Source of the DNA: Escherichia phage A51.2
Strand: one strand, 5' to 3'
Sequence record: ON286973
DNA length: 64,000 nt
Position numbers and translations under genes: made by a program. The notes under the pieces were generated by a model that worked only from the letters and a program-made list of their open reading frames with translations, was not told where the DNA came from and made no database searches. This document shows, one piece after another, positions 29,319-55,482 of this stretch. Every line of letters starts with the position of its first letter. The first letter of the stretch is position 1.

Positions 29319-29552
29319 ATGAAAGTTAAATTTCTTACAGATTTAGGGTACCCTTCCTTGGTTGACTGTGTTGGTAAAATTGTGGAAGCAAAACGGCTAT
29401 CTGCAAACGAGAATGTTGTCCTGGTTAAAGGGAAGGATTTACTAGCTGCAGGTGCAGAGTCTGGCAGGATCTCTCCTGATTATATGTATTACCTATCTTT
29501 AAGTAATCTGCCAGAGCGAGGCGGTAAAGGCCTTGAAGTTGTGGAGGAGTGA
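29319..29552 (+). CDS. Small acidic protein, paralog family A (MKVKFL ... LEVVEE)
   Basis: Family A N- and C-terminal signatures. Confidence 0.45.
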   Translation: MKVKFLTDLGYPSLVDCVGKIVEAKRLSANENVVLVKGKDLLAAGAESGRISPDYMYYLSLSNLPERGGKGLEVVEE

Positions 29553-32693: not shown

Positions 32694-32977
32694 TAATGAA
32701 AAAGATTAACAGTAGTGAAGTAGAGTTTAAACTTGTCGGAAAAGGCACTTACTGGGAAGTTCGTCAAAAGGTATATTTGTTCGGTCTTATTCCCTACTGG
32801 TCTAAATTCTACTGGGGAGCTAACGAGTTGGGAAGATACGCCACCAAATCAATGGCACTTATTGGTATAGCAGAGTACATTGCAGCCCGAGACAGGGTTG
32901 GAACCACTTATTACTACACTGCTGACGATATTCGTAACAGTGTTTACGTCCCACAACCACCTGATGGAGACCGTTGA
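32690..32977 (+). CDS. Hypothetical protein
   Basis: ORF. Confidence 0.4.
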   Translation: MIMKKINSSEVEFKLVGKGTYWEVRQKVYLFGLIPYWSKFYWGANELGRYATKSMALIGIAEYIAARDRVGTTYYYTADDIRNSVYVPQPPDGDR

Positions 32978-33201
32978 TGAAAGTTAAAGTTTTAGATTCA
33001 AGCTTCTATATTGGTCAGGAGCCTTTAGTAGGAAAAGTGTTTACTGCTGTCCCTAACGAAGATTACCCTGACCTTTTAAAAATAAAAGGAGCAGATCTTA
33101 TTGCCGCTGGTGCATCTCAGGAATGCTTTGACAGTCAGTGGACCTATAACTTTGCCCTAGGTGAGGATGTAGAGGTAGTGGAGGACGATCATGAAGGTTA
33201 A
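32974..33201 (+). CDS. Small acidic protein, paralog family A (MMKVKVLDSSFYIGQ ... VEVVEDD)
   Basis: Clear paralog of 33191..33445. Confidence 0.5.
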   Translation: MMKVKVLDSSFYIGQEPLVGKVFTAVPNEDYPDLLKIKGADLIAAGASQECFDSQWTYNFALGEDVEVVEDDHEG

Positions 33202-33445
33202 AATTCTTGATTCTAACGTCTACTTGGGACAATCCTTCCTGAATGGAAAGGTCGTTCCTGCGGTATACTTTGAAGGGTTGCCGTGGGATGATCCTGTGCG
33301 GCAACATCACAGTTATGTAGGCCACAACGTGGTGTTTATCTTGGGATCAGACCTGATCACCGCTGGTGCACCTGAATATTATTTCGGGGAAGAGTCCTAC
33401 TATGCCTTTGGGGTAGGGTCAGATGCAGATATTGTAGAGCTGTGA
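33191..33445 (+). CDS. Small acidic protein, paralog family A (MKVKILDSNVYLGQ ... DIVEL)
   Basis: Clear paralog of 32974..33201. Confidence 0.5.
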   Translation: MKVKILDSNVYLGQSFLNGKVVPAVYFEGLPWDDPVRQHHSYVGHNVVFILGSDLITAGAPEYYFGEESYYAFGVGSDADIVEL

Positions 33446-33457: not shown

Positions 33458-33856
33458 GTGAAAAATAAACTGTTTAAAGTTACAATGAAAATTCGCGGGG
33501 CTTGGAGCGTAAAGCAAGGGCGTATTCCAGAATTTGAGAAAGACTTCTACGTAGTCTCCACCTCGGAGGAGGCTGCATGCTGGCAGGCTGGCTATGCCTA
33601 TGCAAGAACCTGGTACGAAGGATACCAGACTGGGGGCTATGACGGAGAAATTATCAGCAAGGGTGTAGAAGAAATTAATGTGTTGACAAGTGAAAAAGTT
33701 TTTGTTATAGTGCATCCAGATTCCAGAGTGAAGCATTACTGGAATGCCAGAACAAAAACTTGGACACCGTTTGCAGATTCTGCTACGCCACTTTTAAACC
33801 AGAAAGCTCTTGACTCTGCCCCAAGTTATGGGGTTGTTGAAGAAAAGCTAAACTGA
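33458..33856 (+). CDS. Hypothetical protein, paralog family B (HPDS ... HYWN ... WTP)
   Basis: Paralog of 35668..36063. Confidence 0.45.
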   Translation: MKNKLFKVTMKIRGAWSVKQGRIPEFEKDFYVVSTSEEAACWQAGYAYARTWYEGYQTGGYDGEIISKGVEEINVLTSEKVFVIVHPDSRVKHYWNARTKTWTPFADSATPLLNQKALDSAPSYGVVEEKLN

Positions 33857-34170: not shown

Positions 34171-34199
34171 TTGACACAACGCTTCAGATTTAGTATCAT
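34171..34199 (+). promoter_or_regulatory. Sigma70-like promoter, TTGACA-17bp-TATCAT, upstream of the HPF-like gene
   Basis: Read directly. Confidence 0.55.
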
Positions 34200-34248
34200 T
34201 GTTTTCAAAGAGAGATAGTTATTCCCTCTTCCTTAAAAGGAACACGTT

Positions 34249-34569
34249 ATGCAAATTGAAATCACTGGCAACAATGTAGAAATCACAGAAGGTATGGTAT
34301 CTTTTATTTCCCGCAAAATGTCCAAGCTGGAGCGTTTACATCCCTCTGTTAACTATGCACGTGTGAGTGTAAAAGTTGAAAATGATCACCAGGAAGTTAT
34401 GGCGTTCATTTTTGACAATTCTGGAAAAGAAGTTATTGCCAAGGCTAAAGGCAGTGATGCTTACGAGGCAACTGACCGTATGGTAGATGTTGCAGCACGT
34501 CAGCTGGCTAAATGCGGTGGAAAGAAAGGTAAGGGGAAAGGCAAAGTAAAGATTGACTTTGGAGAATGA
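34249..34569 (+). CDS. hpf: Ribosome hibernation promoting factor / RaiA (YfiA) family protein
   Basis: N-terminus MQIEITGNNVEITEGMVSFISRKMSKLE is near-identical in pattern to E. coli HPF MQLNITGNNVEITEALREFVTAKFAKLE; basic Lys/Gly-rich tail. Confidence 0.85.
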   Translation: MQIEITGNNVEITEGMVSFISRKMSKLERLHPSVNYARVSVKVENDHQEVMAFIFDNSGKEVIAKAKGSDAYEATDRMVDVAARQLAKCGGKKGKGKGKVKIDFGE

Positions 34570-34706
34570 GGTGCTACAATGGGTGTGATTAAGAAATTAG
34601 TCCCAAATGTAGAGATTGCATGCTTTGAAATTATGTTTGCAATCGCAGTTGTAGTTAATGTGTTAGGTTACGGCTATTAATATCAAATAATTGAGGAGAC
34701 CTCTAA

Positions 34707-35335: not shown

Positions 35336-35668
35336 ATGAAAGTACGCTTTATTGGTGAAACAATTCCTGTGCATCTCCGGTCGCCTGAGGATTCTGCAGA
35401 TCTTGCATCTCAAAAGGCGAGAGGTTATGATAAGAAAGTAACCTCAACCGATGTAGTGCTTGAGGCTACTAGTCTACCTGACCCTGCTGCATTCTTTAAT
35501 CATTATGGGTACTATTTCAGCAATCTGATGAATATCGGTGAGCTTGTGTTTATTAGTGGTGGAGAAATTGTTAGCAAGCTTGGCGGCGATCCGGATGTCT
35601 TTCATGAAACCTGTCCTTTTGCATTTGTGGTGGGTTCAGATGTGGAAGTTATTGAGGAGGTGCGGTAA
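35336..35668 (+). CDS. Small acidic protein, paralog family A (MKVRFIG ... VEVIEEVR)
   Basis: Family A signatures; start refined to internal ATG 35336. Confidence 0.4.
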   Translation: MKVRFIGETIPVHLRSPEDSADLASQKARGYDKKVTSTDVVLEATSLPDPAAFFNHYGYYFSNLMNIGELVFISGGEIVSKLGGDPDVFHETCPFAFVVGSDVEVIEEVR

Positions 35669-36063
35669 TGGTAAGCCTATACCGTGTTGAGTATAGCTCA
35701 GATACTGTATACAACGTAAGAAGCAAAGATCGCAGCGACAGAGTGCAAGAAATGTATGTTCTTGCCGACAGTCCGTTATCTGCAGCGTTCAAGGCAGGGG
35801 CTCTTGCATCTCGTTGGAAATTTGAAGGCGGATCTTTCTATGAAGAAACCCTTGAAGATTCTGTTGTTATTTCTTCTGTAGAGGTTTCAGATGACTACGA
35901 AGGGAAAAAGTTCGTAATGCGGCACCCACACAGCAACATTGCGTACTACTGGGATGTTCTGAACAACGAGTGGACCCCAGATCTTCAGAAGGCTACTGTG
36001 CTAACACCGTTTTTGGCAGATAAGTTCCCACCAGAAGGTAATTTATCCGCACTGTTTCAGTAA
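35668..36063 (+). CDS. Hypothetical protein, paralog family B (HPHS ... YYWD ... WTP)
   Basis: Paralog of 33458..33856. Confidence 0.45.
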   Translation: MVSLYRVEYSSDTVYNVRSKDRSDRVQEMYVLADSPLSAAFKAGALASRWKFEGGSFYEETLEDSVVISSVEVSDDYEGKKFVMRHPHSNIAYYWDVLNNEWTPDLQKATVLTPFLADKFPPEGNLSALFQ

Positions 36064-38461: not shown

Positions 38462-38467
38462 TGACAA

Positions 38468-38495
38468 AGAGGGGGGCTTAGGCCCCTCTTTTTAC
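38468..38495 (+). terminator. Rho-independent terminator AGAGGGGGGC-TTA-GGCCCCTCT plus TTTTT
   Basis: Read directly. Confidence 0.7.
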
Positions 38496-42963: not shown

Positions 42964-43109
42964 GGTGTTTTTACCTCTTAGTTAATTTTCTTACAACTTC
43001 CCTTCAAAAAAGAATATAGCAAAACTGCCGATCCTTGTCAACCAAGGATAGCATAATTTTTTATGTGATCAAGGGGCTTTATTGCCCCCCTGATCGTGCA
43101 ACTTGTTTA

Positions 43110-43373
43110 TTATTTGTTGCTCATCCAGTTTTCCCAGGCTGCCTGATAATCTGCCTCACTGCGGCGGATCTCTTCTTGTTCTTCAAGGCGGATCTCTTCT
43201 TCCAGGTACCCCAGTATATCGGCTTTTTTGGTCTGGCGTAGCATCCAGTCATCTTTTTTGCGGGTAAAGATCTTATAAGCTTTCTCGCAAACCTCTTTTT
43301 TGCTACCTTTCTGGACTTCAAGAACACGATAAGCCATATATTGAACTAGTTTGAGCTGGTCAAGACGTTTCAT
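43110..43373 (-). CDS. Hypothetical protein
   Basis: ORF; start refined to ATG 43373 after AGAGG. Confidence 0.4.
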   Translation of the reverse strand: MKRLDQLKLVQYMAYRVLEVQKGSKKEVCEKAYKIFTRKKDDWMLRQTKKADILGYLEEEIRLEEQEEIRRSEADYQAAWENWMSNK

Positions 43374-43434
43374 GATGTTTACCTCTTTATGCGGTTCTGG
43401 TTTGGTGGGCCTTTTGGCCCGTGTCATTATCTTA

Positions 43435-43707
43435 TTACTTATGGCGGCAGAATTCAAGCGTTTTTAATTGATAATCTTCCTCAGCCTGGAGTACTACCGC
43501 CTCGATCATTTCGTTGGCATTGTTAAAGCCATAACCTTTAGCGAACTCATCCGCGCCACCTTCGTGATCATGTTCTGCGTTCATCGCTTCCACAAAATGG
43601 AATTCCAAATTGTTGAGGTAGGGGCTTGATGTTCCGTCCTCTTTTTCGATGAGATCCCAAATAGCATTAAAACGTGATTCGACTTCTTGATTAATCCAGC
43701 TTGACAT
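43435..43707 (-). CDS. Hypothetical acidic protein
   Basis: ORF. Confidence 0.4.
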   Translation of the reverse strand: MSSWINQEVESRFNAIWDLIEKEDGTSSPYLNNLEFHFVEAMNAEHDHEGGADEFAKGYGFNNANEMIEAVVLQAEEDYQLKTLEFCRHK

Positions 43708-43928
43708 AGTGTTTTCCTCTCTCCTGGTTGTTGTGTGGGCACCTTTGCCCCTTCAAGATAAATGTTACCTCACCCCCATGGCAGATGTCAACGGTTTTTA
43801 TAGTTCTTATATGACAGGCAGGCCCGGTGATTGTCTCCCCCCTGTTCCCAAGTGCCGCCCGTTTAATAAGAATAACAAAAGGGGCCGAACAAGTCAACCC
43901 CAAAATCAGTACCAAAAACACTTTTTAT

Positions 43929-44240
43929 TTATACGGTCCGATCATTGGCCTTTGTCCAGGACCTGGCGATCCGTTTCCCGGTCACCTGGAACGGAGACTG
44001 CATTGTGTGTAATGAGTCCAGCGTAAGGGAGGACCGTTTACGGCGTATCTTCAGGATCGCTAACGTATTGTCCATCTCACGGCCAGGCCCTGGGCGGTAT
44101 GGTGTGCCTCCAGCGTTAAGGTTGATGATCTCATGTATTGAGATCCGGCGTTGTTTTGCTTCCGCATCTTTGAAGATAGCCAGCGGAGGCGCTATGCGTT
44201 GCCGATACCAATCTAAAACGGTTGGCGTAATAGCGATCAT
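43929..44240 (-). CDS. Hypothetical protein
   Basis: ORF; ATGA overlap with the upstream minus gene supports co-translation. Confidence 0.3.
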   Translation of the reverse strand: MIAITPTVLDWYRQRIAPPLAIFKDAEAKQRRISIHEIINLNAGGTPYRPGPGREMDNTLAILKIRRKRSSLTLDSLHTMQSPFQVTGKRIARSWTKANDRTV

Positions 44241-44428
44241 ATTTTACCCCCTATGTAGTCCGGTCGGTTTTTCTCTGTCATGCGCTTTAGCAATTCTTGC
44301 ATGTTACTTATGGCTTGTAGTGTATCCCCTTCCAGGCTTGAATCAACATAATCAGGATCGTCTATGACCTTTCTATGATTATGATAACGCAGTACTGCTA
44401 ATACCTTTCTAACTTGTTCGATATTCAT
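44237..44428 (-). CDS. Hypothetical protein
   Basis: ORF. Confidence 0.35.
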   Translation of the reverse strand: MNIEQVRKVLAVLRYHNHRKVIDDPDYVDSSLEGDTLQAISNMQELLKRMTEKNRPDYIGGKI

Positions 44429-44577
44429 TTTTACCGCTCTTTAAAACAAGGTGCCAACCGTTTCCAATAGATCACTGACCATCAGGACAATACTGATCAG
44501 CACATGCCTAACCATAAGGGGAAAGAGCGCCAGCGATCCCGCCACAATCCCCAAGGTGATGATTATCTTTCTCATGG

Positions 44578-44862
44578 TTAACGGTTTACGTAAGCTTTAC
44601 CGTTTACGGTGATGGGCAGATCTTCCAGGTCTGGATCTTCCTTAAGGTCGCGAGCAAGCTCACCGCACCGGATACCCTCGAATCCGTAGTACTCTGTTGT
44701 GCCGTCATTAAAAGTTTTAGCGGCAAGGCATAAGCGATAAGTAACCCCGATTTGATTGACGGCATGAATATCCGTTAGATTAACCTCTTTTGCCAGCTCT
44801 TTAGCCATTACAGGCGCATTAAGTCCAACAACCAGGGCAACCACTGCGATCATCTTTTTCAT
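44578..44862 (-). CDS. Secreted/periplasmic small protein with signal peptide
   Basis: MKKMIAVVALVVGLNAPVMA signal-peptide-like N-terminus. Confidence 0.45.
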   Translation of the reverse strand: MKKMIAVVALVVGLNAPVMAKELAKEVNLTDIHAVNQIGVTYRLCLAAKTFNDGTTEYYGFEGIRCGELARDLKEDPDLEDLPITVNGKAYVNR

Positions 44863-44953
44863 TGTGTCTATCCTCTTTCTGCTACGTTTAAGGCGGCGGT
44901 AACCGCCTGTTTATGCTTTGTTGGTTAATTTTCGGGTATCGGTATAAATTAAA

Positions 44954-45178
44954 CTATGCTGTACGCTCAACTATAACAACGGTTTGAGGGATCTCACCTT
45001 CCACCACTATCAAGGCCTTTTTCTGCGTGATGGATATCTTTACCCGTTGCAGCGTGGCGGTGAAGTCTTTCATTTCGTCACGTGGTGTTTTAGTGCAATA
45101 CCAGATCTCAGGCTTGCCGACCTGCAAGCCGCGCAAGAATTCCGTTTTACCTGTTTTATTCGTGATCATTTGATTCAC
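44954..45178 (-). CDS. Hypothetical protein
   Basis: ORF. Confidence 0.35.
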   Translation of the reverse strand: MNQMITNKTGKTEFLRGLQVGKPEIWYCTKTPRDEMKDFTATLQRVKISITQKKALIVVEGEIPQTVVIVERTA

Positions 45179-45182
45179 CTTA

Positions 45183-45286
45183 ACCGATACCGTGGGAAGA
45201 TAGGATCATGTTAGCCATAGTTGCAACCCATCCAACCGATAATGCCAGGCCAACTACTACAACCGTGAAAATTTTCTCTAACATGA
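45183..45286 (-). CDS. Small membrane peptide, about 34 aa (MLEKIFTVVVVGLALSVGWVATMANMILSSHGIG)
   Basis: Micro-ORF with one transmembrane segment; coordinates approximate. Confidence 0.25.
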
Positions 45287-45361
45287 TTCTACCCTCATTA
45301 ATGGCGGGAAGTATTCCCGCGCTATGTAGTACACTTTACCAGATTGTTGACTGTTGTCAAA

Positions 45362-45589
45362 CTAATTTTTACAAGGGATCAGTAAACTTCTTGCTACTGC
45401 TTCGCGTAGTCCTTGACTTTTTATCAGATCTATTGTTGCAGGATGGCAAGTAAAAGCCTTTGACCATTTTTGATCCCCTGGTTTACGGGCAAAAATGTAA
45501 ACTTCCCCGTCGATTTCATCCCAACGAGTATTGCTTGTTAGTTTTTTAAGCGCCATGATGATCTCTCTTTTAGTTGTGAGCGGCATCAT
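45362..45589 (-). CDS. Hypothetical protein
   Basis: ORF. Confidence 0.4.
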   Translation of the reverse strand: MMPLTTKREIIMALKKLTSNTRWDEIDGEVYIFARKPGDQKWSKAFTCHPATIDLIKSQGLREAVARSLLIPCKN

Positions 45590-45641
45590 TGCCGCCCTAC
45601 GAAATACATTCTACCCGATTTACAATTGTTGTCAAACTATT

Positions 45642-45821
45642 TTAACGATAATCATCATATGCTTTATTGACCTGGCGAATATAACATTCAAAAGCTAGAT
45701 CAATAGATTTATATTCACGGATATATTCACCATAGGAAACCACATACATTTCTATAGCTTCCTCATATGCGAGGAGAATAGAATCTAAGCCTACGATCTC
45801 AGTCTTTGCAATAATAGCCAT
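45642..45821 (-). CDS. Hypothetical protein, 59 aa
   Basis: ORF below track cutoff; RBS AAAGAGGA. Confidence 0.3.
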   Translation of the reverse strand: MAIIAKTEIVGLDSILLAYEEAIEMYVVSYGEYIREYKSIDLAFECYIRQVNKAYDDYR

Positions 45822-45895
45822 GATTTTTATCCTCTTTGTGGTTGGTGGGGCTTGTTGCCCCTTTGATTTATATTCTACAGTCTTATAAGGTCATG

Positions 45896-46129
45896 TCAAC
45901 TATTTTCAAAAAATTTTTCTGCTGTAATATTTTTCCCGGTAGGGTTCGCTACTTTCAAAATTTTATCATGCACTGGACGCCCAAAAGAATAAGCGCCGTA
46001 CACAGTGCACCAATAATCGCCGTCAGGCTGTACTATTACAGCCGCATAGGGTACGCCTTTTTCGTTTTTGCTGACAAAATAGATCACGTTGCCATTAATA
46101 GCCTCGGCGCGTTTAATTTGTTCCATCAT
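45896..46129 (-). CDS. Hypothetical protein
   Basis: ORF; AAGAGAGG RBS. Confidence 0.4.
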   Translation of the reverse strand: MMEQIKRAEAINGNVIYFVSKNEKGVPYAAVIVQPDGDYWCTVYGAYSFGRPVHDKILKVANPTGKNITAEKFFENS

Positions 46130-46185
46130 GATGATTTGCCTCTCTTTATTTTCATAATTGGGGGGCCTTTTCGGCCCCGCCAGGT

Positions 46186-46470
46186 TTATTTATTGATAGC
46201 GTGCAGCGGGAAAGGTACGCCAGGTTGATAGATAACTTTTACAACCTCATCAGAGCAAAAGAAATTACAGAATTCGCCCTGATAAGCCTCATCCTCTTTT
46301 AATTCTTCATCAACATACTCAAAAAAGTAGTCAACACTTGGATAATCTTGCCCTGGGTTATAGTCAACCATTGTCAGGACCAGTTCAAGATCGTTGCGTA
46401 GGATATGCATACCCGCTTTTAAGTATTTTGCTTCCATTTCTACTACATCGCCAGCGGTAACAATAGCCAT
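46186..46470 (-). CDS. Hypothetical acidic protein
   Basis: ORF; AGGAG RBS. Confidence 0.4.
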   Translation of the reverse strand: MAIVTAGDVVEMEAKYLKAGMHILRNDLELVLTMVDYNPGQDYPSVDYFFEYVDEELKEDEAYQGEFCNFFCSDEVVKVIYQPGVPFPLHAINK

Positions 46471-46526
46471 GGTTTTAACTCCTATCTATCCGGTTAATGA
46501 TTGGGGGCCGCCCCCCGACACGTCCT

Positions 46527-46554
46527 ATTATCCATATTGTAGGGCTTGATGCAA
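46527..46554 (-). promoter_or_regulatory. Sigma70-like promoter on minus strand, TTGCAT-16bp-GATAAT, within the conserved element TATTATCCATATTG
   Basis: Read directly; second copy at 47694-47721. Confidence 0.5.
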
Positions 46555-46672
46555 GTACTTCTTTAAAAAATTTTTTAAGCGCCTTGGGGGTAGCTGTAAC
46601 GCTAAAATAATAAAGGCCATGCAACCGCATAGCCTTTATGTGATTATATCGCTGCAGGCCCTGCTAGGGGCC

Positions 46673-47023
46673 TTATTTTGCATTCTTGCTTGTATTGCCG
46701 CCACGGTACCAACGTTTGCGGTGAAAATGGTAATAATCACCCTCGGCATTGAACATCAGATGATTTTCAATAACCAGCTTACGAAGGTGGGCCGGATCTT
46801 GTTCCATTCTTGCCAGATTCCGGCTGTTGTTACGTAAGCGGATAAATTCCATATTCAGGCCGTTGATTGCAGCATGGATGTCAAAGTAACCACCTTTGAG
46901 ACGTTCACGCATGGCGTTAAGCTCAACACAATATACAGATTTCTCACAAATCAAGGTATTAGCCAGGGCGCGGACCTGGGCAAGGGGGTTAAGCTCATTA
47001 AGGTAATATAGTTTTACTTTCAT
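46673..47023 (-). CDS. Hypothetical protein
   Basis: ORF. Confidence 0.4.
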   Translation of the reverse strand: MKVKLYYLNELNPLAQVRALANTLICEKSVYCVELNAMRERLKGGYFDIHAAINGLNMEFIRLRNNSRNLARMEQDPAHLRKLVIENHLMFNAEGDYYHFHRKRWYRGGNTSKNAK

Positions 47024-47040
47024 AAAATCACCTGCTGAAA

Positions 47041-47349
47041 TTAGTTTGAGAAAACATCGTTCACAATAGCGATCACAATGCCGCCCACCTTGTCACGGTC
47101 AACAATGCACAAATCACCATAGATCATGTGGTAGTCTGGATGATCTTTCACAGAATAGTCAATAAGTGTTTTCTTGTCGTCCAGCTTCGTAACTTCCATT
47201 CTCATAACGATATGAGAATCATCAAAGGCATTATTCCGGAAAGTCATAGCCTGACCACCAGGGCACCCGGTGATCTCCACTTCCACACCATCTACGATCT
47301 GACCATCAAAGAAATAAAGATTATTAGCCTGGATAAACATGTCTATCAC
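47041..47349 (-). CDS. Hypothetical protein
   Basis: ORF. Confidence 0.4.
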   Translation of the reverse strand: MIDMFIQANNLYFFDGQIVDGVEVEITGCPGGQAMTFRNNAFDDSHIVMRMEVTKLDDKKTLIDYSVKDHPDYHMIYGDLCIVDRDKVGGIVIAIVNDVFSN

Positions 47350-47384
47350 TCCTTGTTAACTGCGTGGTATTTTAACAGGGTTTA

Positions 47385-47432
47385 AATTTACTTTATCGAT
47401 GGCCCTGAAGTCAAGGCCATCTAAAAATAAAT
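47385..47432 (-). promoter_or_regulatory. Conserved roughly 44-bp intergenic element TTTACTTTATCGATGGCCCTGAAGTCAAGGCCATCTAAAAATAA (copy 1 of 3); hairpin GATGGCC/GGCCATC; promoter-like on the minus strand
   Basis: Read directly; near-identical copies at 51125-51169 and 51746-51792. Confidence 0.55.
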
Positions 47433-47433
47433 T

Positions 47434-47634
47434 TTACAGGCCTACAATCTCTTTGATTCGTTTAACTGCTGCCTCAGCGCCTTGGGGGTAGAAATTATGA
47501 TAACCAATCACGCGAGTGATACTAATCGCCGTTTGATGATCTTCATAGTCGCCCTTGAAGATTTCTTGACCGTCAATCAGCACGGCAATTTTTTCTTCTT
47601 TTTTGAAGTTAATAACGCGGATATTGTTGCTCAT
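47434..47634 (-). CDS. Hypothetical protein
   Basis: ORF. Confidence 0.4.
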   Translation of the reverse strand: MSNNIRVINFKKEEKIAVLIDGQEIFKGDYEDHQTAISITRVIGYHNFYPQGAEAAVKRIKEIVGL

Positions 47635-47693
47635 CTTCTTTCTCCTCTTCGGGCTTTTGTTTGTGTGGTGGGGATGTTTCCCCGTTGATTGTT

Positions 47694-47721
47694 ATTATCC
47701 ATATTGCGGACCGGATTGCAA
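47694..47721 (-). promoter_or_regulatory. Sigma70-like promoter on minus strand, TTGCAA-16bp-GATAAT (second copy of the TATTATCCATATTG element)
   Basis: Read directly. Confidence 0.5.
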
Positions 47722-47778
47722 CACCCTGAAAGGGAAATTTTTTAAAAAGATAGGCCCCCATGATCGGGGGCCGTTCTT

Positions 47779-47892
47779 AGTTACTTACAGCGATAAAGTA
47801 CATCCCTACGCCTAGCAATATTTCAAGGGCGATGATCTCAAGCCATACCATAACCCGGCGCGCCTTATCGGTACGGGGCTTATCCTTGGTTG
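47779..47892 (-). CDS. Small membrane peptide, about 37 aa
   Basis: Micro-ORF with hydrophobic C-terminal half. Confidence 0.25.
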
Positions 47893-48138
47893 TCATCGTC
47901 TCCCCCTTTCTTCCTGGTAGTAGTGACGTGGTTTACAATGGCCCCCAGGAGTACCATCACCACGCACATCCCAAGAAAAATTATCTCCGCTGTTGTTCGG
48001 TCCATTGTTATAAAATTCCTCAAGATCAGGCTTGAAAATAAAGCGTTCGTTATTGAATCCATCACGCCAGGCGGCTGGATTCAAATCTTCACTAAAGGGA
48101 TTAATTAACGTGGCATTATTTAAACGGTTGGCCCACAT
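47893..48138 (-). CDS. Hypothetical protein
   Basis: ORF; start refined to ATG 48138 after GAGAGGAA; alternative overlapping frame 47880..48065 not excluded. Confidence 0.3.
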   Translation of the reverse strand: MWANRLNNATLINPFSEDLNPAAWRDGFNNERFIFKPDLEEFYNNGPNNSGDNFSWDVRGDGTPGGHCKPRHYYQEERGRR

Positions 48139-48487
48139 ATTTTCTATTCCTCTCAAATAGGCGATCCGCCTCAGTTAAACATATCTCATGGGCTTGATCT
48201 CTGGTTTTAGCCTCATCGAAAACTTGTTGTGCCAGGCTGCAGCGTAGGGAGACTGGAAGATCACTATAATAGGCGTTGACAAACGTTTGAGCGTCGTACA
48301 GGTCTGAAAATACTTTACCCTTTCTATTATTCCCCTTGTCAACAATTGCAAGGATAACCAATACAATAGTTGCAACCACTCCCAGGAAAATAGATATAAC
48401 AAACCATAGAAAAGCGGATCTACCCATCTTGCCAGCGATCCAGGCGTTGAACAAGGCAACTACTACAGCCAAAATAATAAATTCCAT
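48116..48487 (-). CDS. Membrane protein (two transmembrane segments)
   Basis: MEFIILAVVVALFNAWIAG ... FLWFVISIFLGVVATIVLVILAIV; start refined to ATG 48487. Confidence 0.45.
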   Translation of the reverse strand: MEFIILAVVVALFNAWIAGKMGRSAFLWFVISIFLGVVATIVLVILAIVDKGNNRKGKVFSDLYDAQTFVNAYYSDLPVSLRCSLAQQVFDEAKTRDQAHEICLTEADRLFERNRKYVGQPFK

Positions 48488-48551
48488 TCTATGTACCTCT
48501 TTTGCAGTTCTGTTTAACAATAAGGCGGCAAATATGCCGCCTGTTACCTGA

Positions 48552-48932
48552 TTAAAAATTATCGCCGTAAATCTTTCCGCTTTCTGCCCACACCACCACG
48601 CGGGGCATGTTATCCCATACGTCTTGTTTTAGATTTAACGCGTGCAATTCTTCTGTGGTGCTCATACCAGGCACGGGCTGATTGTATACTGCAAAACGAC
48701 CACCTGCATAATCATAAGCTAAAGTCAAATCGCACTGAATCATTTTCTTGATCATGGCGTTGAGCATAGCATTAGCCGCATATTGATCACGTTTTAAAGG
48801 CAACTCTTTGATTAGTTTGCGATAGTTTTCAATGTGATCGCACACTGTTTCACGTGGAAGATCTTTCATATCCTCGCGAAAGGTAACCAGGTTAAACATA
48901 ACGGTGTCAATAGCTTTAGTAGTGTTTTTCAT
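48552..48932 (-). CDS. Hypothetical protein
   Basis: ORF; start refined to ATG 48932. Confidence 0.4.
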   Translation of the reverse strand: MKNTTKAIDTVMFNLVTFREDMKDLPRETVCDHIENYRKLIKELPLKRDQYAANAMLNAMIKKMIQCDLTLAYDYAGGRFAVYNQPVPGMSTTEELHALNLKQDVWDNMPRVVVWAESGKIYGDNF

Positions 48933-49021
48933 GATGTTTTCCTCTTTGTTTTGTGTGGGGCAAGTCATCTCGCCCCTTGAGTTTTAATATAGCAGGTTTT
49001 TAAATTATTGCAACACTTTAT

Positions 49022-49645
49022 TTATGAAAAACTCATCTCACCATATTCATCTACATCAAACCGCCAATCATTGGCTTCAATAAGGCCGATCAGGTTTTCG
49101 GTAGTAAACTGTTCAAGATAGGCCTCCTCAAGGTCTACATAAACCTTGCGGGATAGCTCCCGTACCGTCTCGGTGATCAGCTCTTCCAGATCTTCCACTT
49201 TATTTTCTTGTTTTGCGGTCAGATCTAGCCAGGTAGTATCAATATATCCGCTTACAGTGTTTTCATGGCTGTAATGGCTGTACTTGTCGCGTTCAACACT
49301 GGCTGATAGTTCGCCATCGTGCATTGTGCCGAACAAGTGACGAATTGATCGGAACTTGGTCAGGGCCTTGACTTTACGCAAGAATTTCTCTAAGTCTACA
49401 TTTTCAGCACTAATTGACGCGCCATCGCCTTGACACCAAAAGCCGGACCAATGTACATCGGTATCTTCAAGGCCGTACTCTGGAAAAACCTGTTCTTTAT
49501 AGTATTCAATTACACTTTCTGCAAAAAAGTTATCCCCGCTGTGTTCTTCTCTTTCGCGGACCATTTCAATAGCTTTTTCTTTTTGTTCGTCGGTCAGCAC
49601 GTCGAAAGATAAATTGTAACCTGTGGTAATGTTAACGGTGGTCAT
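49022..49645 (-). CDS. Hypothetical acidic protein
   Basis: 207-aa ORF. Confidence 0.45.
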   Translation of the reverse strand: MTTVNITTGYNLSFDVLTDEQKEKAIEMVREREEHSGDNFFAESVIEYYKEQVFPEYGLEDTDVHWSGFWCQGDGASISAENVDLEKFLRKVKALTKFRSIRHLFGTMHDGELSASVERDKYSHYSHENTVSGYIDTTWLDLTAKQENKVEDLEELITETVRELSRKVYVDLEEAYLEQFTTENLIGLIEANDWRFDVDEYGEMSFS

Positions 49646-49719
49646 GATATTTTCTCCTATTTTCTTTGTTAGTGGCGGGAAAACTTCCCGCCTGTGTGTT
49701 TAAGTATACTTATTGAGAT

Positions 49720-49980
49720 TTACTTGTCAACACTATTTTTTAAATTATTGTGGCGTAAAATGTTCAAGATCTCTTCAACGTCATCAACACGGCGGCAATT
49801 TTTAAACGCTACCAGTTGCCCCAGTATTTTAATCACTGGACGGCCTTGCCAGTGCCCTTGGAGAAAGCGAGCTTTAACTTTATCGGTGGAACTATCACGC
49901 CACCAAATGGCCTTGTTGTTGCAGTAGTAAAAATTATTCAGGACAACATCAACTTTATCAAAATTTTTTAATTTACGCAT
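49720..49980 (-). CDS. Hypothetical protein
   Basis: ORF. Confidence 0.4.
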   Translation of the reverse strand: MRKLKNFDKVDVVLNNFYYCNNKAIWWRDSSTDKVKARFLQGHWQGRPVIKILGQLVAFKNCRRVDDVEEILNILRHNNLKNSVDK

Positions 49981-50179
49981 GGCGTTTACTCCTTTCTCTC
50001 TTTGATGTGGTTAGTATAGCTAACCTGTTTAAGATGTCAAGCTTTAAATAAAATCACTATCAATGATATTTTTAACGCCATAAAACGGCCCTAAGCGATG
50101 TTTTCAGGTTAAAGGGGGCGATTGCATAGGTGGGGCCTTTTTGGCGCTTACAGGGCCAACCGGGGGCGCTATTCGTAGG

Positions 50180-50212
50180 ATAGAAATAAAAAGCCCCGCA
50201 CAATGGCGGGGC
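50180..50212 (-). terminator. Rho-independent terminator (minus-strand sense GCCCCGC-CAUUGU-GCGGGGC followed by UUUUUUAUUUC)
   Basis: Read directly, just downstream of the minus gene ending at 50221. Confidence 0.75.
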
Positions 50213-50220
50213 GTTGGTTG

Positions 50221-50418
50221 TTATTTGCCTTTGTGGCGGTATCGTTCCGCCTGTCGTTCACGTTCCAAAAGCAGGCCCGGTAATTTGCGATCATAATGAT
50301 TCCGCCAGATCTTCCCAAATCTTTTTGGCTTATTCAGTTTATTGTTGCGCTGGCGGCGTTCCGGCAGCTCTTCGGAAGCATGAGATCGCTTTACAATCTT
50401 CTCAAAATTAATCTTCAT
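50221..50418 (-). CDS. Small highly basic protein (Arg/Lys-rich)
   Basis: ORF; start refined to ATG 50418; nucleic-acid-binding character is inferred from composition only. Confidence 0.4.
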   Translation of the reverse strand: MKINFEKIVKRSHASEELPERRQRNNKLNKPKRFGKIWRNHYDRKLPGLLLERERQAERYRHKGK

Positions 50419-50761
50419 ATATTCCCCCCTTGCTAACTTCAATATTGGCCTGAATAGCCCGGATACGGCGCTTTATAACTTCCTGATCTGTGTGATCGTA
50501 TCCCCAAAAGTCTACGATTTTTGCGCCTCCAGCCTTTAGGCGGTATAGTGTTTCTTGCATCTTGTAAGCCGGGATCGGTCGCGGTGTTACCTGGTCGCCC
50601 TTCTCATTCTTGTACTTGATAATATAGTCTTCATTGTCGTTGAATACCCAAAACGGGTATTCTGTAAGGGCGTTGCTATCTTTTTCGTTTTTAGATTGGA
50701 TCTTGTTTACAATTAAAGCCGTAGCAATAGCGCCAATAATAAAACTTGCCCCGCTGATCAT
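50408..50761 (-). CDS. Membrane-anchored protein
   Basis: N-terminal transmembrane segment ISGASFIIGAIATALIV; start refined to ATG 50761 after AGGAG. Confidence 0.4.
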   Translation of the reverse strand: MISGASFIIGAIATALIVNKIQSKNEKDSNALTEYPFWVFNDNEDYIIKYKNEKGDQVTPRPIPAYKMQETLYRLKAGGAKIVDFWGYDHTDQEVIKRRIRAIQANIEVSKGGIYED

Positions 50762-50836
50762 GTACTTTCTCCTTTCATTGTATTGATAAACTATCTTTAT
50801 AGATGGCCCTGCTACCAGGACCACCGAAAAAACAGC

Positions 50837-51082
50837 TTATTTGACGATACCGACAAAACAGATCCCGCCTTCCCCTATATAGGCAATATCGGTAATTTTA
50901 TAATTTGTCAAGATCCGCGTGTTCAGATCATTAATAAAATCGGTCATCGCGTTGGTGTAGTTGTCTTCCGTGTCTAAGGCATAATCCCAGGTGTAAACCT
51001 TTTTACGTCCGAAGCCTTTTACCATGATACGGGCGCTTTTGGTGTTGGTAGGGGCATAATATTTGGTGATTAGTGCTGCCAT
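50837..51082 (-). CDS. Hypothetical protein
   Basis: ORF. Confidence 0.4.
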   Translation of the reverse strand: MAALITKYYAPTNTKSARIMVKGFGRKKVYTWDYALDTEDNYTNAMTDFINDLNTRILTNYKITDIAYIGEGGICFVGIVK

Positions 51083-51124
51083 GGTTTTAACTCCTCTGAA
51101 TTAGTTCAGTGTTAACAGTATAAA

Positions 51125-51169
51125 GTTTACTTTATTGATGGCCCTGGAGTCAAGGCCATCTAAAAATAA
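51125..51169 (-). promoter_or_regulatory. Conserved roughly 44-bp intergenic element (copy 2 of 3)
   Basis: Read directly. Confidence 0.55.
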
Positions 51170-51171
51170 TC

Positions 51172-51513
51172 TTACTCGTTTTCTTCCAGCTCCGCAAGCT
51201 CTTCTTTTGCTTCTTCTAACTCTGTCTGTAGTTCCTGGTATTCTTCATCTTCCTCAATATCCAGGCTGTCGATGTAGTCGCTAAATCCGCAGCGGTAAGC
51301 GATAGGATCTAGCTCCTTGAGGATACGCGACGGAAGAAAAGAAATGTTTCCGATCATAATTTCGCCGTAGATCTCGTCTAACCATTCATCATAGTTTTCG
51401 TCGTACTTGTCCTCGTCGATTTCAAAGTTATCGATCTTGTTCTCAAGGTCTGCGATCTGTTTTTTCAGCGCGGCGATCTGCATAGCTTTTTCTGCGGCGG
51501 TCATAGTAGTCAT
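51172..51513 (-). CDS. Acidic coiled-coil protein
   Basis: ORF. Confidence 0.4.
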   Translation of the reverse strand: MTTMTAAEKAMQIAALKKQIADLENKIDNFEIDEDKYDENYDEWLDEIYGEIMIGNISFLPSRILKELDPIAYRCGFSDYIDSLDIEEDEEYQELQTELEEAKEELAELEENE

Positions 51514-51745
51514 GGTGTTTTCTCCTTTTGTGTGCTCTGGGAAGTTTTCCCGTTTACGTGTTTAAGTATATCGATCTAAGTTAGTTTGTCAATTAAAAAT
51601 TTAAGAAAAATTTTGCAAAACTGTTAGCGCTACTCATTAACATTTGCGCCAGGATGTAACCGACAACGCAAACGATAATAGTTACCTTTGTGTATTGGCG
51701 TGTAGTGCTCATCTTAAAGCCCCCTTTTTTCGCTTAGTTGAGATT

Positions 51746-51792
51746 AGTTTACTTTATTGATGGCCCTGAAGTCAAGGCCATCTAAAAATAAA
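51746..51792 (-). promoter_or_regulatory. Conserved roughly 44-bp intergenic element (copy 3 of 3)
   Basis: Read directly. Confidence 0.55.
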
Positions 51793-51793
51793 C

Positions 51794-52198
51794 TTAGTAA
51801 GTTTTCAGTACTTTACCGTCCAACCTGTCAAGCTGGATCTCGATAGCTGCAGAAAACCTATTGTAAACCACATCGCCCATAGAATCCAACCAGTCTATGA
51901 TATTATACACTTGCTCTTTGTTCTTGCAGGTCCGGATCCGTTTCATGATGTAAGCCGGATCAATATTGGTACTCTCGTTGGTGTTCCCCTGTACCTGGTT
52001 TGCCGTATTAGTTACATCTTTAATGGCCTTTACCACCACCTGGAATGGCTTTAAGGTGCCTTTTGCGTTCATCTCACGCGCTTTTGCGGCGCGGTTGTTA
52101 TATGTTACACAACGGCGGCAAATGTTGATCAAATGCATGTCAATAATTTTTTCATCGTTTGCCAACTCGTTCATGATGCGGCGTACGTTCTTATTCAT
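51794..52198 (-). CDS. Hypothetical protein
   Basis: ORF. Confidence 0.4.
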   Translation of the reverse strand: MNKNVRRIMNELANDEKIIDMHLINICRRCVTYNNRAAKAREMNAKGTLKPFQVVVKAIKDVTNTANQVQGNTNESTNIDPAYIMKRIRTCKNKEQVYNIIDWLDSMGDVVYNRFSAAIEIQLDRLDGKVLKTY

Positions 52199-52286
52199 GA
52201 TCTTTTTCCTTTGTGCTGGCGGGAAACATTCCCGCCTTTTGTGTCTAGTTTACTTGAATTTTGCAGCGTGTCAATAATTTTTTTTT

Positions 52287-52685
52287 TTATTCGTGGGCAC
52301 ATGTTACAATGTGCTTTTTATAGCCTAGGTGGTCAGCAAGTGCTGACAAAAACTCTTCTTCGTAGATCCAGCCGTTGGCAGTGATCCCCATAGCATTTAA
52401 TGCGCTCTCAAGTGCTGCGTTAGCTTTATCATAACCGTGACCGCTCGCCTTGCCGCCAGTATAGCCGTACTTATTGTTCTTGTTGTCGTGTATCCAAAAA
52501 ACGCAGTAGTAAGTGTTCCCGCTGTCGGCGGCATAATACCGGATCTCAGCTACTTCGTGCAAATTATTGTCATCGTCCAGGCCCACCAGATTATAAGCCT
52601 TGTAAAATCCACGATCACGGCGGCAGTTCTTGACATCAGAAAAAGAAAAGTCTGCATTATCAAAATTAAAGGTAGTGGTTTTCAT
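52287..52685 (-). CDS. Hypothetical protein
   Basis: ORF. Confidence 0.4.
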   Translation of the reverse strand: MKTTTFNFDNADFSFSDVKNCRRDRGFYKAYNLVGLDDDNNLHEVAEIRYYAADSGNTYYCVFWIHDNKNNKYGYTGGKASGHGYDKANAALESALNAMGITANGWIYEEEFLSALADHLGYKKHIVTCAHE

Positions 52686-52749
52686 GATTTTATCCTCTTA
52701 GTGTCTTTTGTGCTTTTAGTGTATTTGGTGTCGGACTATATGTCAATAC

Positions 52750-52947
52750 TTATTTTTTATTAAACCAGTGGTTGATCTGACCTTTTGTCAGGGCGCAACG
52801 ATTAAGCTGTTGCAGGGTATAGCTATGACCGCGACGAAATTTATAAAGGCCTTGCCCGTTGTTGATGGTTACATCCACCCGGCAAATCACTTGATTGGTG
52901 ACCACCTGGCGAGTGTTGCGACGTACTTTGATCCCGTATGCGTTCAT
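52750..52947 (-). CDS. Small basic protein
   Basis: ORF; start refined to ATG 52947 after AGAGGA. Confidence 0.35.
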   Translation of the reverse strand: MNAYGIKVRRNTRQVVTNQVICRVDVTINNGQGLYKFRRGHSYTLQQLNRCALTKGQINHWFNKK

Positions 52948-53623
52948 AAATTTATCCTCTTTACTGGTTAGTGCGGTGTTGTTCACCTTGTAGGGTAATA
53001 ATACCATGATTAACCTTGTTGTCAACGACTATTTTAAATTATTTTTATGATAGAATCCACCTGCCGCCGCCCTGCCAGGTTAACCATCATTTTTTCGTAC
53101 TCTTCTTTATGTTCCAACGCTCCCGCCATGGCCTTTTCAACCAGGGCGATAGCCTCAGCGTCATTAATAGCTACATTTTCCAGGCTGGCCCCGCCAGGTT
53201 GCAGCGGTTAGCGCATCAGGTTAGAAAAATTTTTTGAAAAGTGTTGACAGCGGCCCCGCCAGGTGGCACAATATACCTATCGAAAGGACGGCAGGCACCG
53301 GTGACGGGGGAGACAACCACCGGGGATGGGCGCTGCATAAAATGAGAACGGTTATCATTATCATTTAAAAATTTATGCAAAAAATCCTTGCTTTCTTTGT
53401 CCTGTGTGATACTATAATAACAAGCCGGGGCAACAGGGGCCGGGAGACAATCACCGGGCCTGCCCGTTATTCTGCAAACGAGAATGATTATCATTCAAAA
53501 TTCTAAATGAGAACTCCTCGCATTTAATAAATTTAATTAGCACGCTAATTACCCTCCGTAACAATTTCCTATAAAACAGTATCCCATAAAATATTCCCGT
53601 ATAGAAATTTTAAAAATCCATTT

Positions 53624-53793
53624 CTGAAAACGAAAAATCGATTTCGTCCCCAAAAATTTTAGGCCAAGAGCCGGAGCGATTTCCAGAAAATCCGATTCAG
53701 AAAACGAAAAACAGATCGAGTACTGAGAAATTTATCGAGAAAAATTTTCAGAAAATTCAATCTTTGAAACGAAAAACAGATCGAGTACCTGGA
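53624..53793. repeat. Three tandem repeat units of about 70 bp, each containing GAAAACGAAAAA(C/T)(A/C)GAT ... (starts near 53624, 53696, 53764)
   Basis: Read directly; lies in an ORF-free island. Confidence 0.65.
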
Positions 53794-54864: not shown

Positions 54865-54884
54865 ACTTTATCTCCTGCGCTTTC

Positions 54885-55217: not shown

Positions 55218-55227
55218 GGCACGATAC

Positions 55228-55419: not shown

Positions 55420-55482
55420 AATACATCACTCTCTGTTAGTTTATGCATATATTATACACTGCAGTTTTCAGATGTCAATCTT

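What the first reader, a model, noticed from the sequence alone, without database searches (positions are those of the whole stretch)
34171..34569. Phage-encoded ribosome hibernation promoting factor (HPF/RaiA) with its own promoter
The ORF 34249..34569 matches the HPF/YfiA family along its N-terminal half (MQIEITGNNVEITE ... KLE), and a TTGACA-17-TATCAT promoter lies just upstream. HPF/RaiA proteins bind the ribosome and inhibit or hibernate it, so a phage copy suggests deliberate manipulation of host translation, for example shutting down host translation or protecting ribosomes. This copy has an unusual Lys/Gly-rich tail (GGKKGKGKGKVKIDFGE).
Basis: partly seen in the sequence, partly recalled or inferred. 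Interest (0 to 1): 0.75.

Follow-up and report, generated by a model that had tools for sequence, protein, structure and literature searches.

The report
Known rV5 phage ribosome-hibernation-factor homolog
This is a real, conserved phage gene for a homolog of the bacterial ribosome hibernation factor HPF with its own host-type promoter, but gene, promoter and idea were already annotated in phage rV5 and published in 2019, and its role in infection is still unproven.

Summary
ORF 34249..34569 (+) encodes a 106-aa protein that matches the HPF/YfiA family (Pfam PF02482, E=4e-15) over the whole domain, residues 1-90, not only the N-terminal half. [quoted passage not shown] The TTGACA-17-TATCAT promoter (34171-34199) is one of 23 near-consensus sigma-70 sites in the window (about 0.7 per strand expected) and is kept in a 64%-identical ortholog.

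It is not new. The window is an rV5-like Vequintavirus, 100% identical to slur16 here. The rV5 reference record annotates both the gene (ORF144) and the promoter (P144). Mizuno et al. 2019 described rV5 HPF, expressed it in E. coli, and found no stable association with salt-washed 70S/100S ribosomes and no change in 100S.

What I add:
- The core is under strong purifying selection (dN/dS about 0.05).
- The clade occurs only in rV5-like phages.
- It lacks 2 of 5 canonical alpha-2 rRNA-contact lysines, plus R17.
- It carries a disordered, indel-prone, basic tail.

Most likely it binds the 30S decoding channel of vacant host ribosomes early in infection. Function is unproven. Interest is low.

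The parts
34171..34199 (+). Sigma-70-type promoter: TTGACA (34171-34176), 17-nt spacer, TATCAT (34194-34199). It is the equivalent of rV5 promoter P144.
   Evidence: 11 of 12 consensus match in the intergenic gap. It is one of 23 such sites, against about 0.7 per strand expected. The -35 block AAACTGTTGACAca, a 17-nt spacer and a TG-extended -10 are kept in the 64%-identical ortholog locus L002. The element is nearly invariant in 6 other Vequintavirus alleles. It is annotated in NC_011041. The transcription start has not been mapped.
34209..34241 (+). 5' leader with two small predicted hairpins and the Shine-Dalgarno AAGGA (34237-34241).
   Evidence: Sequence. The fold energy is not better than shuffled sequence (z = -0.6 for the window, -0.7 to -1.7 for other alleles). 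No comparable hairpin is predicted in the divergent ortholog's shorter leader. I make no regulatory claim.
34249..34518 (+). [quoted passage not shown]
   Evidence: Pfam and NCBIfam hits. PDB sequence hits. AlphaFold2 model. Foldseek against the PDB. dN/dS of 0.04-0.08 within the genus.
34519..34569 (+). Basic Lys/Gly-rich C-terminal tail (residues 91-106, GKKGKGKGKVKIDFGE) plus the stop codon. Predicted disordered.
   Evidence: pLDDT is below 50 for residues 92-104. Measured from residue 89, the tail has net charge +4, against +2 for E. coli HPF and -4 for YfiA. It is indel-prone: Murica has 99 aa, APECc02 101 aa, YN3 103 aa. The divergent lineage has a different sequence that is still basic.
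34553..34580 (+). Second promoter-like site: TTGACT, 16-nt spacer, TGcTACAAT. It overlaps the last hpf codons (ATT GAC TTT = I-D-F) and the start of the next small ORF.
   Evidence: 10 of 12 match plus a TG. The DNA is conserved in all alleles, including the frameshifted ones, and the -10 is TATAAT in EcoIv14a. An analogous TTTACA-17-TACACT site follows hpf in L002. It is not annotated in rV5. Function is untested.
34579..34680 (+). 33-aa hydrophobic small ORF immediately downstream (rV5 ORF145, annotated hypothetical).
   Evidence: Sequence. Annotated in slur16 and rV5. It is absent from the divergent lineage, where the hpf-to-next-gene gap has no called gene. Whether it is a real gene is uncertain.

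Best explanation
This is the Vequintavirus (rV5-type) ortholog of rV5 ORF144/gp139. It is a short-form HPF-family protein that the phage lineage acquired long ago from a gammaproteobacterial hpf-like gene and has kept under purifying selection.

Shown here:
- It is a genuine S30AE-domain protein with the HPF fold.
- It sits in a block of small ORFs driven by many near-consensus host sigma-70 promoters. One of these lies directly upstream of it.

Inferred:
- It is made early, by unmodified host RNA polymerase.
- Like HPF and YfiA, its core binds the channel between the head and body of the 30S subunit on vacant host ribosomes, overlapping the A- and P-site tRNA and mRNA positions.
- The disordered polylysine tail adds non-specific rRNA affinity. 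Like YfiA's longer tail, it is likely to run toward the RMF/anti-Shine-Dalgarno site.
- The expected outcome is therefore RaiA-like occupation or protection of 70S ribosomes, or competition with host RMF/HPF, rather than RMF-dependent 100S formation.

The benefit to the phage is not established. It could be parking and protecting idle ribosomes, damping host translation, or pre-empting the host's own hibernation response.
For: - Family and fold.
- Closer to HPF than to RaiA: PDB E. coli HPF E=4e-15 against YfiA E=0.02. NCBIfam HPF model 65 bits against RaiA model 23 bits.
- Most family-conserved positions are kept: G7, T13, K23, K26, E44, G59, D70, Y72, D76, R84, Q85, K88.
- Purifying selection: omega 0.04-0.08 over the core in four within-genus comparisons with dS 0.2-0.7.
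- An ortholog at 64% identity sits in a syntenic position in a divergent rV5-like lineage.
- Promoter.
- Kropinski 2013 predicted 33 E. coli-type promoters across rV5.
- YfiA's tail heads toward the RMF site and YfiA blocks RMF binding.
- No increase in 100S when rV5 HPF was expressed in E. coli, which fits a factor that does not promote 100S.
Against: - Mizuno et al. 2019 found no rV5 HPF peptides in purified 70S or 100S fractions although the protein was present in the crude extract. They used stringent salt washes and list dissociation, growth phase, or genuine loss of binding as possible causes.
- Both phage lineages lack basic residues at three positions that are 87-90% basic in cellular homologs: R17 to V, K80 to V/T, K89 to G/S.
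- Only 3 of 5 (window) or 2 of 5 (divergent ortholog) alpha-2 rRNA-contact positions are K/R, whereas 79 of 92 cellular homologs have at least 4.
- The score is far below the NCBIfam equivalog cut-offs for HPF (65 against 125) and RaiA (23 against 158).
- No transcript, timing or phenotype data exist for any rV5-like phage in the searched literature.
Confidence: 0.55

Rival explanations
1. Anti-hibernation competitor, as suggested by Mizuno et al. 2019. The protein binds the HPF/YfiA site only weakly or transiently. It displaces or excludes host HPF, YfiA and, through its tail, RMF. Ribosomes of starved or stressed hosts then stay in, or return to, the translatable pool for phage mRNAs.
For: - Fewer canonical rRNA contacts, 3 of 5 on alpha-2 plus loss of R17, would give weaker, reversible binding.
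- The protein was not retained on salt-washed ribosomes and caused no rise in 100S.
- The extended tail is analogous in length to YfiA's, which antagonises RMF.
- The hypothesis is stated in PMC6375957.
Against: - Any occupant of the decoding channel also blocks tRNA and mRNA, so a net stimulation of translation needs fast off-rates that have not been shown.
- The added polylysine tail (net +4) should raise ribosome affinity, not lower it.
- There are no data from stationary-phase infections.
Confidence: 0.2
2. Exapted fold. The protein no longer acts at the ribosomal decoding site. [quoted passage not shown]
For: - Negative ribosome association in the only experiment.
- Systematic loss of three highly conserved basic contact residues in both phage lineages.
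- An isolated clade: the next relatives are at most 44% identical, with E of 6e-10 or weaker.
- Weaker fold matches beyond the HPF family include dsRBDs and small phage inhibitor proteins (ranks 37-46).
Against: - Most other family-conserved residues are retained, including K23, K26, R84, Q85 and K88.
- The core superposes at 1.1-1.6 A on ribosome-bound HPFs.
- 12 of 92 cellular homologs also lack K/R at position 80, so that loss is not unique.
- HPF and YfiA are themselves peripheral factors that salt washing may remove. Mizuno et al. list dissociation during the washes as one possible cause.
Confidence: 0.15
3. Neutral passenger or decaying gene. This would be a recently captured host hpf copy with no role in the phage.
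For: - C-terminal frameshift alleles exist in Murica, APECc02 and P0003.
- Overexpression in E. coli produced no discernible change in ribosome profiles.
Against: - dN/dS is 0.04-0.08 over the core.
- The gene is intact in 117 phage records and in a lineage only 64% identical, at the same genomic position.
- At only 42-43% identity to E. coli HPF, the capture is old, not recent.
- The frameshifts affect only the tail beyond residue 90-97 and could be homopolymer sequencing errors.
Confidence: 0.03

Closest known systems
rV5 ORF144 / gp139 (YP_002003641, ABI79209), the 'HPF' of Escherichia phage rV5 in Mizuno et al. 2019 (Nat Commun 10:752)
   Same: It is the same gene: 97% identical protein (P0001), the same genomic position, and the same upstream sigma-70 promoter, annotated P144. 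It is present in 117 phage records.
   Different: The window allele, which is identical to slur16, slur12 and navn, has one extra Asn (GNNVEIT, as in E. coli HPF, against GNVEIT) and two substitutions. There is no functional difference to claim.
E. coli short HPF (YhbH, 95 aa; PDB 2RQL, 4V8H, 6H4N)
   Same: [quoted passage not shown] K23, K26, R83, K87 and K91 equivalents are retained.
   Different: - It lacks the R17, K80 and K89 equivalents.
- It is 11 residues longer, with a Lys/Gly-rich disordered tail. pI is 9.0 against 6.5.
- It scores 65 bits against the 125-bit equivalog cut-off.
- It is driven by a constitutive-type sigma-70 promoter in a phage early block rather than the host rpoN operon (the host operon context is general knowledge, not tested here).
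- It had no effect on 100S when expressed in E. coli.
E. coli YfiA / RaiA / protein Y (113 aa; PDB 1N3G, 4V8I)
   Same: It has the same fold and ribosomal site family. It has a C-terminal extension beyond the short-HPF end. In YfiA this tail is flexible, heads toward the RMF site and prevents RMF binding and 100S formation. The phage protein likewise did not raise 100S.
   Different: Only about 22% identical. NCBIfam RaiA model gives 23 bits against a cut-off of 158. YfiA's tail is net acidic (-4) and the phage tail net basic (+4). The RefSeq product name 'RaiA' for the phage gene is therefore a family-level label, not a specific assignment.
Other phage-encoded S30AE proteins (PHROG 8990; Cronobacter phage GAP32 HPF)
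   Same: They have the same Pfam domain and show that phages have captured this domain repeatedly.
   Different: They form a separate family. The rV5-type protein has its own PHROG 12469 (E=1e-69, labelled 'unknown function') and matches phrog_8990 only at 1e-7. No other phage in the 50,697-record collection matches at E<=1e-3.

Membership tests
HPF/YfiA family (Pfam PF02482 Ribosomal_S30AE; TIGR00741) | Profile match over the full domain above the curated cut-off | tested here: met
   PF02482: 56.7 bits against 23.7, profile positions 1-83 of 88. TIGR00741: 56.8 bits against 40.9.
HPF/YfiA family (Pfam PF02482 Ribosomal_S30AE; TIGR00741) | [quoted passage not shown] | tested here: met
   AlphaFold2 model, mean pLDDT 84.4, pTM 0.73, elements E-H-E-E-E-H. 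Foldseek top 36 hits are all HPF/YfiA/pY, rmsd 1.1-1.6 A to the best matches.
HPF/YfiA family (Pfam PF02482 Ribosomal_S30AE; TIGR00741) | Conserved basic residues that contact 16S rRNA (alpha-1 K23/K26; alpha-2 track K80, R83, K87, K89, K91) | tested here: inconclusive
   K23, K26, R84, K88 and K92 are present. The K80 equivalent is V81 and the K89 equivalent is G90. The R17 equivalent is V17. That gives 3 of 5 on the alpha-2 track, where 79 of 92 cellular homologs have at least 4.
HPF/YfiA family (Pfam PF02482 Ribosomal_S30AE; TIGR00741) | Binding to the 30S decoding channel of vacant ribosomes | not testable with these tools
   The published test on rV5 HPF found no peptides in salt-washed 70S/100S fractions. 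The authors consider this inconclusive.
Gammaproteobacterial short HPF (NCBIfam NF007780 / PRK10470 equivalog) | Score above the equivalog cut-off | tested here: not met
   65.2 bits against a cut-off of 125. This is the best-scoring subfamily, but the protein is not an equivalog.
Gammaproteobacterial short HPF (NCBIfam NF007780 / PRK10470 equivalog) | Promotes conversion of RMF-induced dimers to 100S | not testable with these tools
RaiA / YfiA (NCBIfam NF007654 / PRK10324 equivalog) | Score above the equivalog cut-off | tested here: not met
   22.8 bits against a cut-off of 158. PDB YfiA E=0.02, against 4e-15 for HPF.
Long HPF (Gram-positive type) | C-terminal dimerisation domain after a linker (total about 180-190 aa) | tested here: not met
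   The protein is 106 aa. The only other Pfam hit at E<=1 is a sub-threshold RRM_9 match inside the core. Residues 92-104 are predicted disordered.
Sigma-70 (housekeeping) promoter | -35 and -10 hexamers near consensus with a 16-18 nt spacer, located upstream of a gene | tested here: met
   TTGACA-17-TATCAT, 11 of 12, ending 50 nt before the ATG.
Sigma-70 (housekeeping) promoter | Conservation beyond the background, and enrichment over chance | tested here: met
   23 sites observed against about 0.7 per strand expected. The -35 block and spacing are kept in the ortholog with 64% protein identity, while the spacer sequence diverged.
Sigma-70 (housekeeping) promoter | Mapped transcription start or activity | not testable with these tools
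   No transcript data were found. rV5 P144 is itself a sequence-based prediction.

The most novel reading that the evidence does not exclude
The rV5-type protein is an HPF fold that the phage has re-engineered. It has shed three of the most conserved rRNA-contact basic residues (R17, K80, K89) and gained a flexible polylysine tail. It may therefore engage ribosomes in a non-canonical or transient way, or engage another RNA target. For example, it could act as an early-expressed anti-hibernation factor that blocks RMF/HPF/YfiA loading during infection of starved cells. That would explain why it was absent from salt-washed ribosomes.
Probability: 0.2. Interest if true: 0.6.

Novelty: already known. 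Interest (0 to 1): 0.2.

Why it matters
Phage-encoded hibernation-factor homologs bear on an open question: how lytic phages deal with the translation state of slow-growing or starved hosts. This gene is conserved, strongly constrained and limited to one lineage, so it is a reasonable handle on that question. The existence of the gene, its family assignment, its promoter and the translation-manipulation hypothesis are all already in the public record: the rV5 GenBank annotation, Kropinski 2013, Mizuno 2019 and Mathieu 2020. The scan therefore adds no discovery. Two items remain to test: the remodelled basic contact surface together with the tail, and the unresolved negative ribosome-binding result.

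Tried and rejected
- **Regulatory leader RNA.** The leader has small predicted hairpins, one of which pairs with the Shine-Dalgarno. Their energies are not better than shuffled sequence (z = -0.6 to -1.7), and no comparable hairpin is predicted in the divergent ortholog's shorter leader. I dropped this.
- **Rfam scan of the whole window.** No family reached its gathering score.
- **Word-indexed homolog search.** It returned only 5 proteins, all phage-type. The exhaustive search was needed to reach cellular relatives.
- **The search for related loci with the 93-sequence alignment.** It failed because the alignment has no sufficiently conserved stretch. The single-protein scan of IMG/VR found only two loci, both 93-96% identical to the query.
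- **Recent host capture** (Mizuno's 'relatively recent past'). Not supported here. Identity to E. coli HPF is only 42-43%, and there is a large gap between the phage clade and all cellular clusters.
- **Pseudogene or passenger.** Rejected on dN/dS.
- **RaiA-specific or long-HPF assignment.** Rejected on NCBIfam scores and on length.
- **Literature searches** for Vequintavirus/Vequintavirinae plus hibernation, phage-encoded HPF, and sigma-54 modulation plus rV5. They found nothing beyond Mizuno 2019 and Mathieu 2020.

Full report
**Observation**

The ORF 34249..34569 (+) is real. An AAGGA Shine-Dalgarno lies 7 nt upstream of the ATG. The 84-nt gap to the previous gene holds TTGACA (34171-34176), a 17-nt spacer and TATCAT (34194-34199).

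**Family and fold**

The protein matches Pfam PF02482 (Ribosomal_S30AE) at E=4.2e-15, 56.7 bits against a gathering score of 23.7. The match covers residues 3-89 on profile positions 1-83 of 88. It passes the NCBIfam HPF/YfiA family model TIGR00741 (56.8 bits against 40.9). It falls below the equivalog cut-offs for E. coli-type HPF (65 against 125) and RaiA (23 against 158).

Against solved structures, the best sequence match is E. coli HPF, at E=4e-15 over residues 1-90. YfiA scores only E=0.02.

An AlphaFold2 model built on a 93-sequence alignment has mean pLDDT 84.4, with block means of 85-95 up to residue 90. Its secondary structure is E2-8, H14-30, E34-43, E48-56, E61-68, H71-90. [quoted passage not shown]

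Foldseek against the PDB returns only HPF/YfiA/pY entries in the top 36. The best matches are:

| Structure | rmsd | Note |
|---|---|---|
| V. cholerae HPF (4HEI) | 1.1 A | |
| E. coli HPF in the 100S ribosome (6H4N) | 1.2 A | TM 0.90 |
| E. coli HPF, NMR (2RQL) | 1.6 A | |

**Promoter**

Sites matching at least 11 of 12 consensus positions occur 23 times in the window. First-order Markov simulations give about 0.68 per strand. The + strand sites lie between 6 and 40 kb. All but one of the - strand sites lie between 43 and 62 kb. This matches gene orientation and indicates two divergent blocks driven by host RNA polymerase.

In a divergent ortholog locus (below), the -35 block AAACTGTTGACAca, the 17-nt spacing and a TG-extended -10 (TGcAATTAT) are retained, while the spacer sequence has changed. 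Six other Vequintavirus alleles keep the element almost unchanged.

**Identity of the genome, and prior knowledge**

The 2-kb region is 100% identical to Escherichia phages slur16, slur12 and navn. It is 90-100% identical to 118 records, mostly Vequintavirus, the rV5-like myoviruses. The protein is found in 117 phage records at 93-100% identity. It is variously annotated 'sigma 54 modulation factor', 'hpf: ribosome hibernation promoting factor' and 'ribosome-associated translation inhibitor RaiA'.

The rV5 reference record annotates ORF 144 as similar to the Klebsiella sigma-54 modulation protein. It also carries a regulatory feature 'Sigma70-type promoter; P144' at the position equivalent to 34171-34199. 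Kropinski et al. 2013 described 33 E. coli-type promoters and the block of about 88 small ORFs in rV5.

Mizuno et al. 2019 (PMC6375957) list rV5 HPF (ABI79209) among virus-encoded ribosomal proteins and propose that viral HPF might compete with cellular homologs. They expressed it from pBAD24 in E. coli. The protein was detected in crude extract but not in salt-washed 70S or 100S fractions, and 100S formation did not change. They name three possible causes: growth phase, genuine loss of binding, or dissociation during the stringent washes. Mathieu et al. 2020 again note hpf in their rV5-like isolates.

I found no later functional work. The finding is therefore already known.

**What the analysis adds**

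1. **Distribution.**
   - An exhaustive HMMER search of 1.84 billion representatives finds only one sister cluster, P0004 (103 aa, 64-66% identity). After that there is a gap to cellular HPFs at no more than 44% identity and E of 6e-10 or weaker.
   - P0004 lies in a syntenic small-ORF block on rV5-sized uncultivated contigs and has no closer match among isolate phages.
   - IMG/VR holds only two further loci, both 93-96% identical to the query.
   - The closest cellular sequences are enterobacterial short HPFs.
   - The gene was therefore captured once, long ago, and kept in this lineage.

2. **Selection.** Nei-Gojobori dN/dS over the core is 0.04-0.08 in four within-genus comparisons, with dS of 0.2-0.7. 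Between the two phage lineages, pN is 0.21 in the core and 0.43 in the tail.

3. **Contact residues.**
   - A 2025 cryo-EM preprint identifies Lys80, Arg83, Lys87, Lys89 and Lys91 on helix alpha-2 as the conserved 16S rRNA contacts of Gram-negative HPF. The first, second, third and fifth are shared with YfiA.
   - In my alignment the phage protein has V81, R84, K88, G90 and K92. P0004 has T, R, K, S and S.
   - That gives 3 of 5 and 2 of 5 basic residues, where 79 of 92 cellular homologs have at least 4.
   - The R17 equivalent (89% basic in cellular homologs) is Val in both phage lineages.
   - Other conserved positions are kept: G7, T13, K23, K26, E44, G59, D70, Y72, D76, Q85.

4. **Tail.**
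   - Residues 92-104 are predicted disordered.
   - Measured from residue 89, the tail is net +4, against +2 for HPF and -4 for YfiA. Whole-protein pI is 9.0 against 6.5 for HPF.
   - No sampled cellular homolog of comparable tail length is as K/G-rich.
   - It is encoded by a purine-rich, slippage-prone run and varies by indels: Murica 99 aa, APECc02 and P0003 101 aa with a frameshifted end, YN3 103 aa.
   - The divergent lineage has a different but still basic tail, SKSKGIDKRTAKWDY.

**Mechanism**

Shown here:
- The protein is a constrained HPF-fold protein.
- It lies behind a host-type promoter, within a promoter-dense block of small ORFs.

Inferred:
- It is expressed early.
- It binds the 30S head-body channel of vacant ribosomes, as HPF and YfiA do.
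- The basic tail adds rRNA affinity and extends toward the RMF/anti-SD region, as YfiA's tail does.
- The expected effect is 70S-type occupation or competition with host factors, not RMF-dependent 100S formation. This agrees with the unchanged 100S level reported by Mizuno et al..

Two things count against firm ribosome binding: the negative mass-spectrometry result and the depleted basic track. I put about 0.55 on canonical-site binding with a RaiA-like outcome. I put 0.2 on a weak-binding anti-hibernation competitor, 0.15 on exaptation to another target, and 0.03 on a neutral passenger.

**Verdict**

The work is already in the annotation and the literature, and the biological role is still open. 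Interest is low (0.2). The remaining value is a specific, testable question: does the remodelled contact surface plus polylysine tail change how, or whether, this protein engages ribosomes?

Noticed in passing
window 34553-34580 (+); L002 about 4313-4350: A second promoter-like site, TTGACT-16-TGcTACAAT, is built into the last hpf codons (ATT GAC TTT = I-D-F) and the start codon of the next small ORF. The DNA is conserved even in alleles where a frameshift puts it out of the hpf reading frame, and the -10 is TATAAT in EcoIv14a. The divergent lineage has an analogous TTTACA-17-TACACT site just after hpf. The conserved 'IDFGE' end of the tail may therefore be constrained at the DNA level. It is not annotated in rV5.
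   Followed up: partly
window 29319-29552, 32977-33201, 33191-33445, 35336-35668; and 33485-33856, 35668-36063: hpf is embedded among paralogous small ORFs. One family has four BLASTP-linked members (E down to 3e-14). A second family has two 131-132-aa members (E=3e-9) that lie on either side of hpf. By eye, several more neighbours share an 'MKIK...' start and a '...YEIVEE'-like end. This suggests tandem duplication in the block.
   Followed up: partly
window, whole: + strand sites 6259-40222; - strand sites 43013-61795 and 1368-1396: 23 near-consensus sigma-70 promoters (at least 11 of 12) are arranged in two divergently oriented blocks that switch at about 40-43 kb. This is far above chance.
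   Followed up: partly
phage records MG065635, MG065653-MG065684 and others: 18 unannotated GenBank records named 'Campylobacter phage' with host Campylobacter jejuni are 96-100% identical to this E. coli rV5-like region. They look like mislabelled or contaminating coliphage genomes.
   Followed up: no
records OR062528, MT884009, MT884011; KR698074 (L006 857-1064): There are annotation errors for this gene. Three records call it 'ATP-dependent protease La type I'. In APECc02 the hpf gene is 'hypothetical protein' and the label 'sigma 54 modulation factor' sits on the unrelated downstream gene. Some records (navn, SophiaRose) carry the label twice.
   Followed up: no
window 34519-34550; L005, L006, L008: The purine-rich run that encodes the K/G repeats is an indel hotspot. 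Murica has a 1-nt deletion giving a 99-aa protein. APECc02 and the metagenomic P0003 have a frameshifted 101-aa protein. YN3 has an in-frame 6-nt deletion. These could be real slippage or homopolymer sequencing errors.
   Followed up: partly
window 34270-34275 (codons 8-9): The slur16/Murica/window allele has GNNVEIT, as in E. coli HPF. rV5 and most other alleles, and the divergent lineage, have GNVEIT. This is a one-codon indel in the beta1-alpha1 loop.
   Followed up: no
protein P0007: A 1160-aa protein in the representative library matches the phage HPF in 8 separate stretches (E=5e-9, best stretch query 36-82). It looks like a tandem array of partial S30AE-like repeats, which is an unusual architecture for this domain.
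   Followed up: no
window 38466-38491 (both strands): A strong GC-rich palindromic hairpin, AAAGAGGGG-cctaagcc-CCCCTCTTT, scores as a terminator on both strands inside the otherwise + strand small-ORF block.
   Followed up: no
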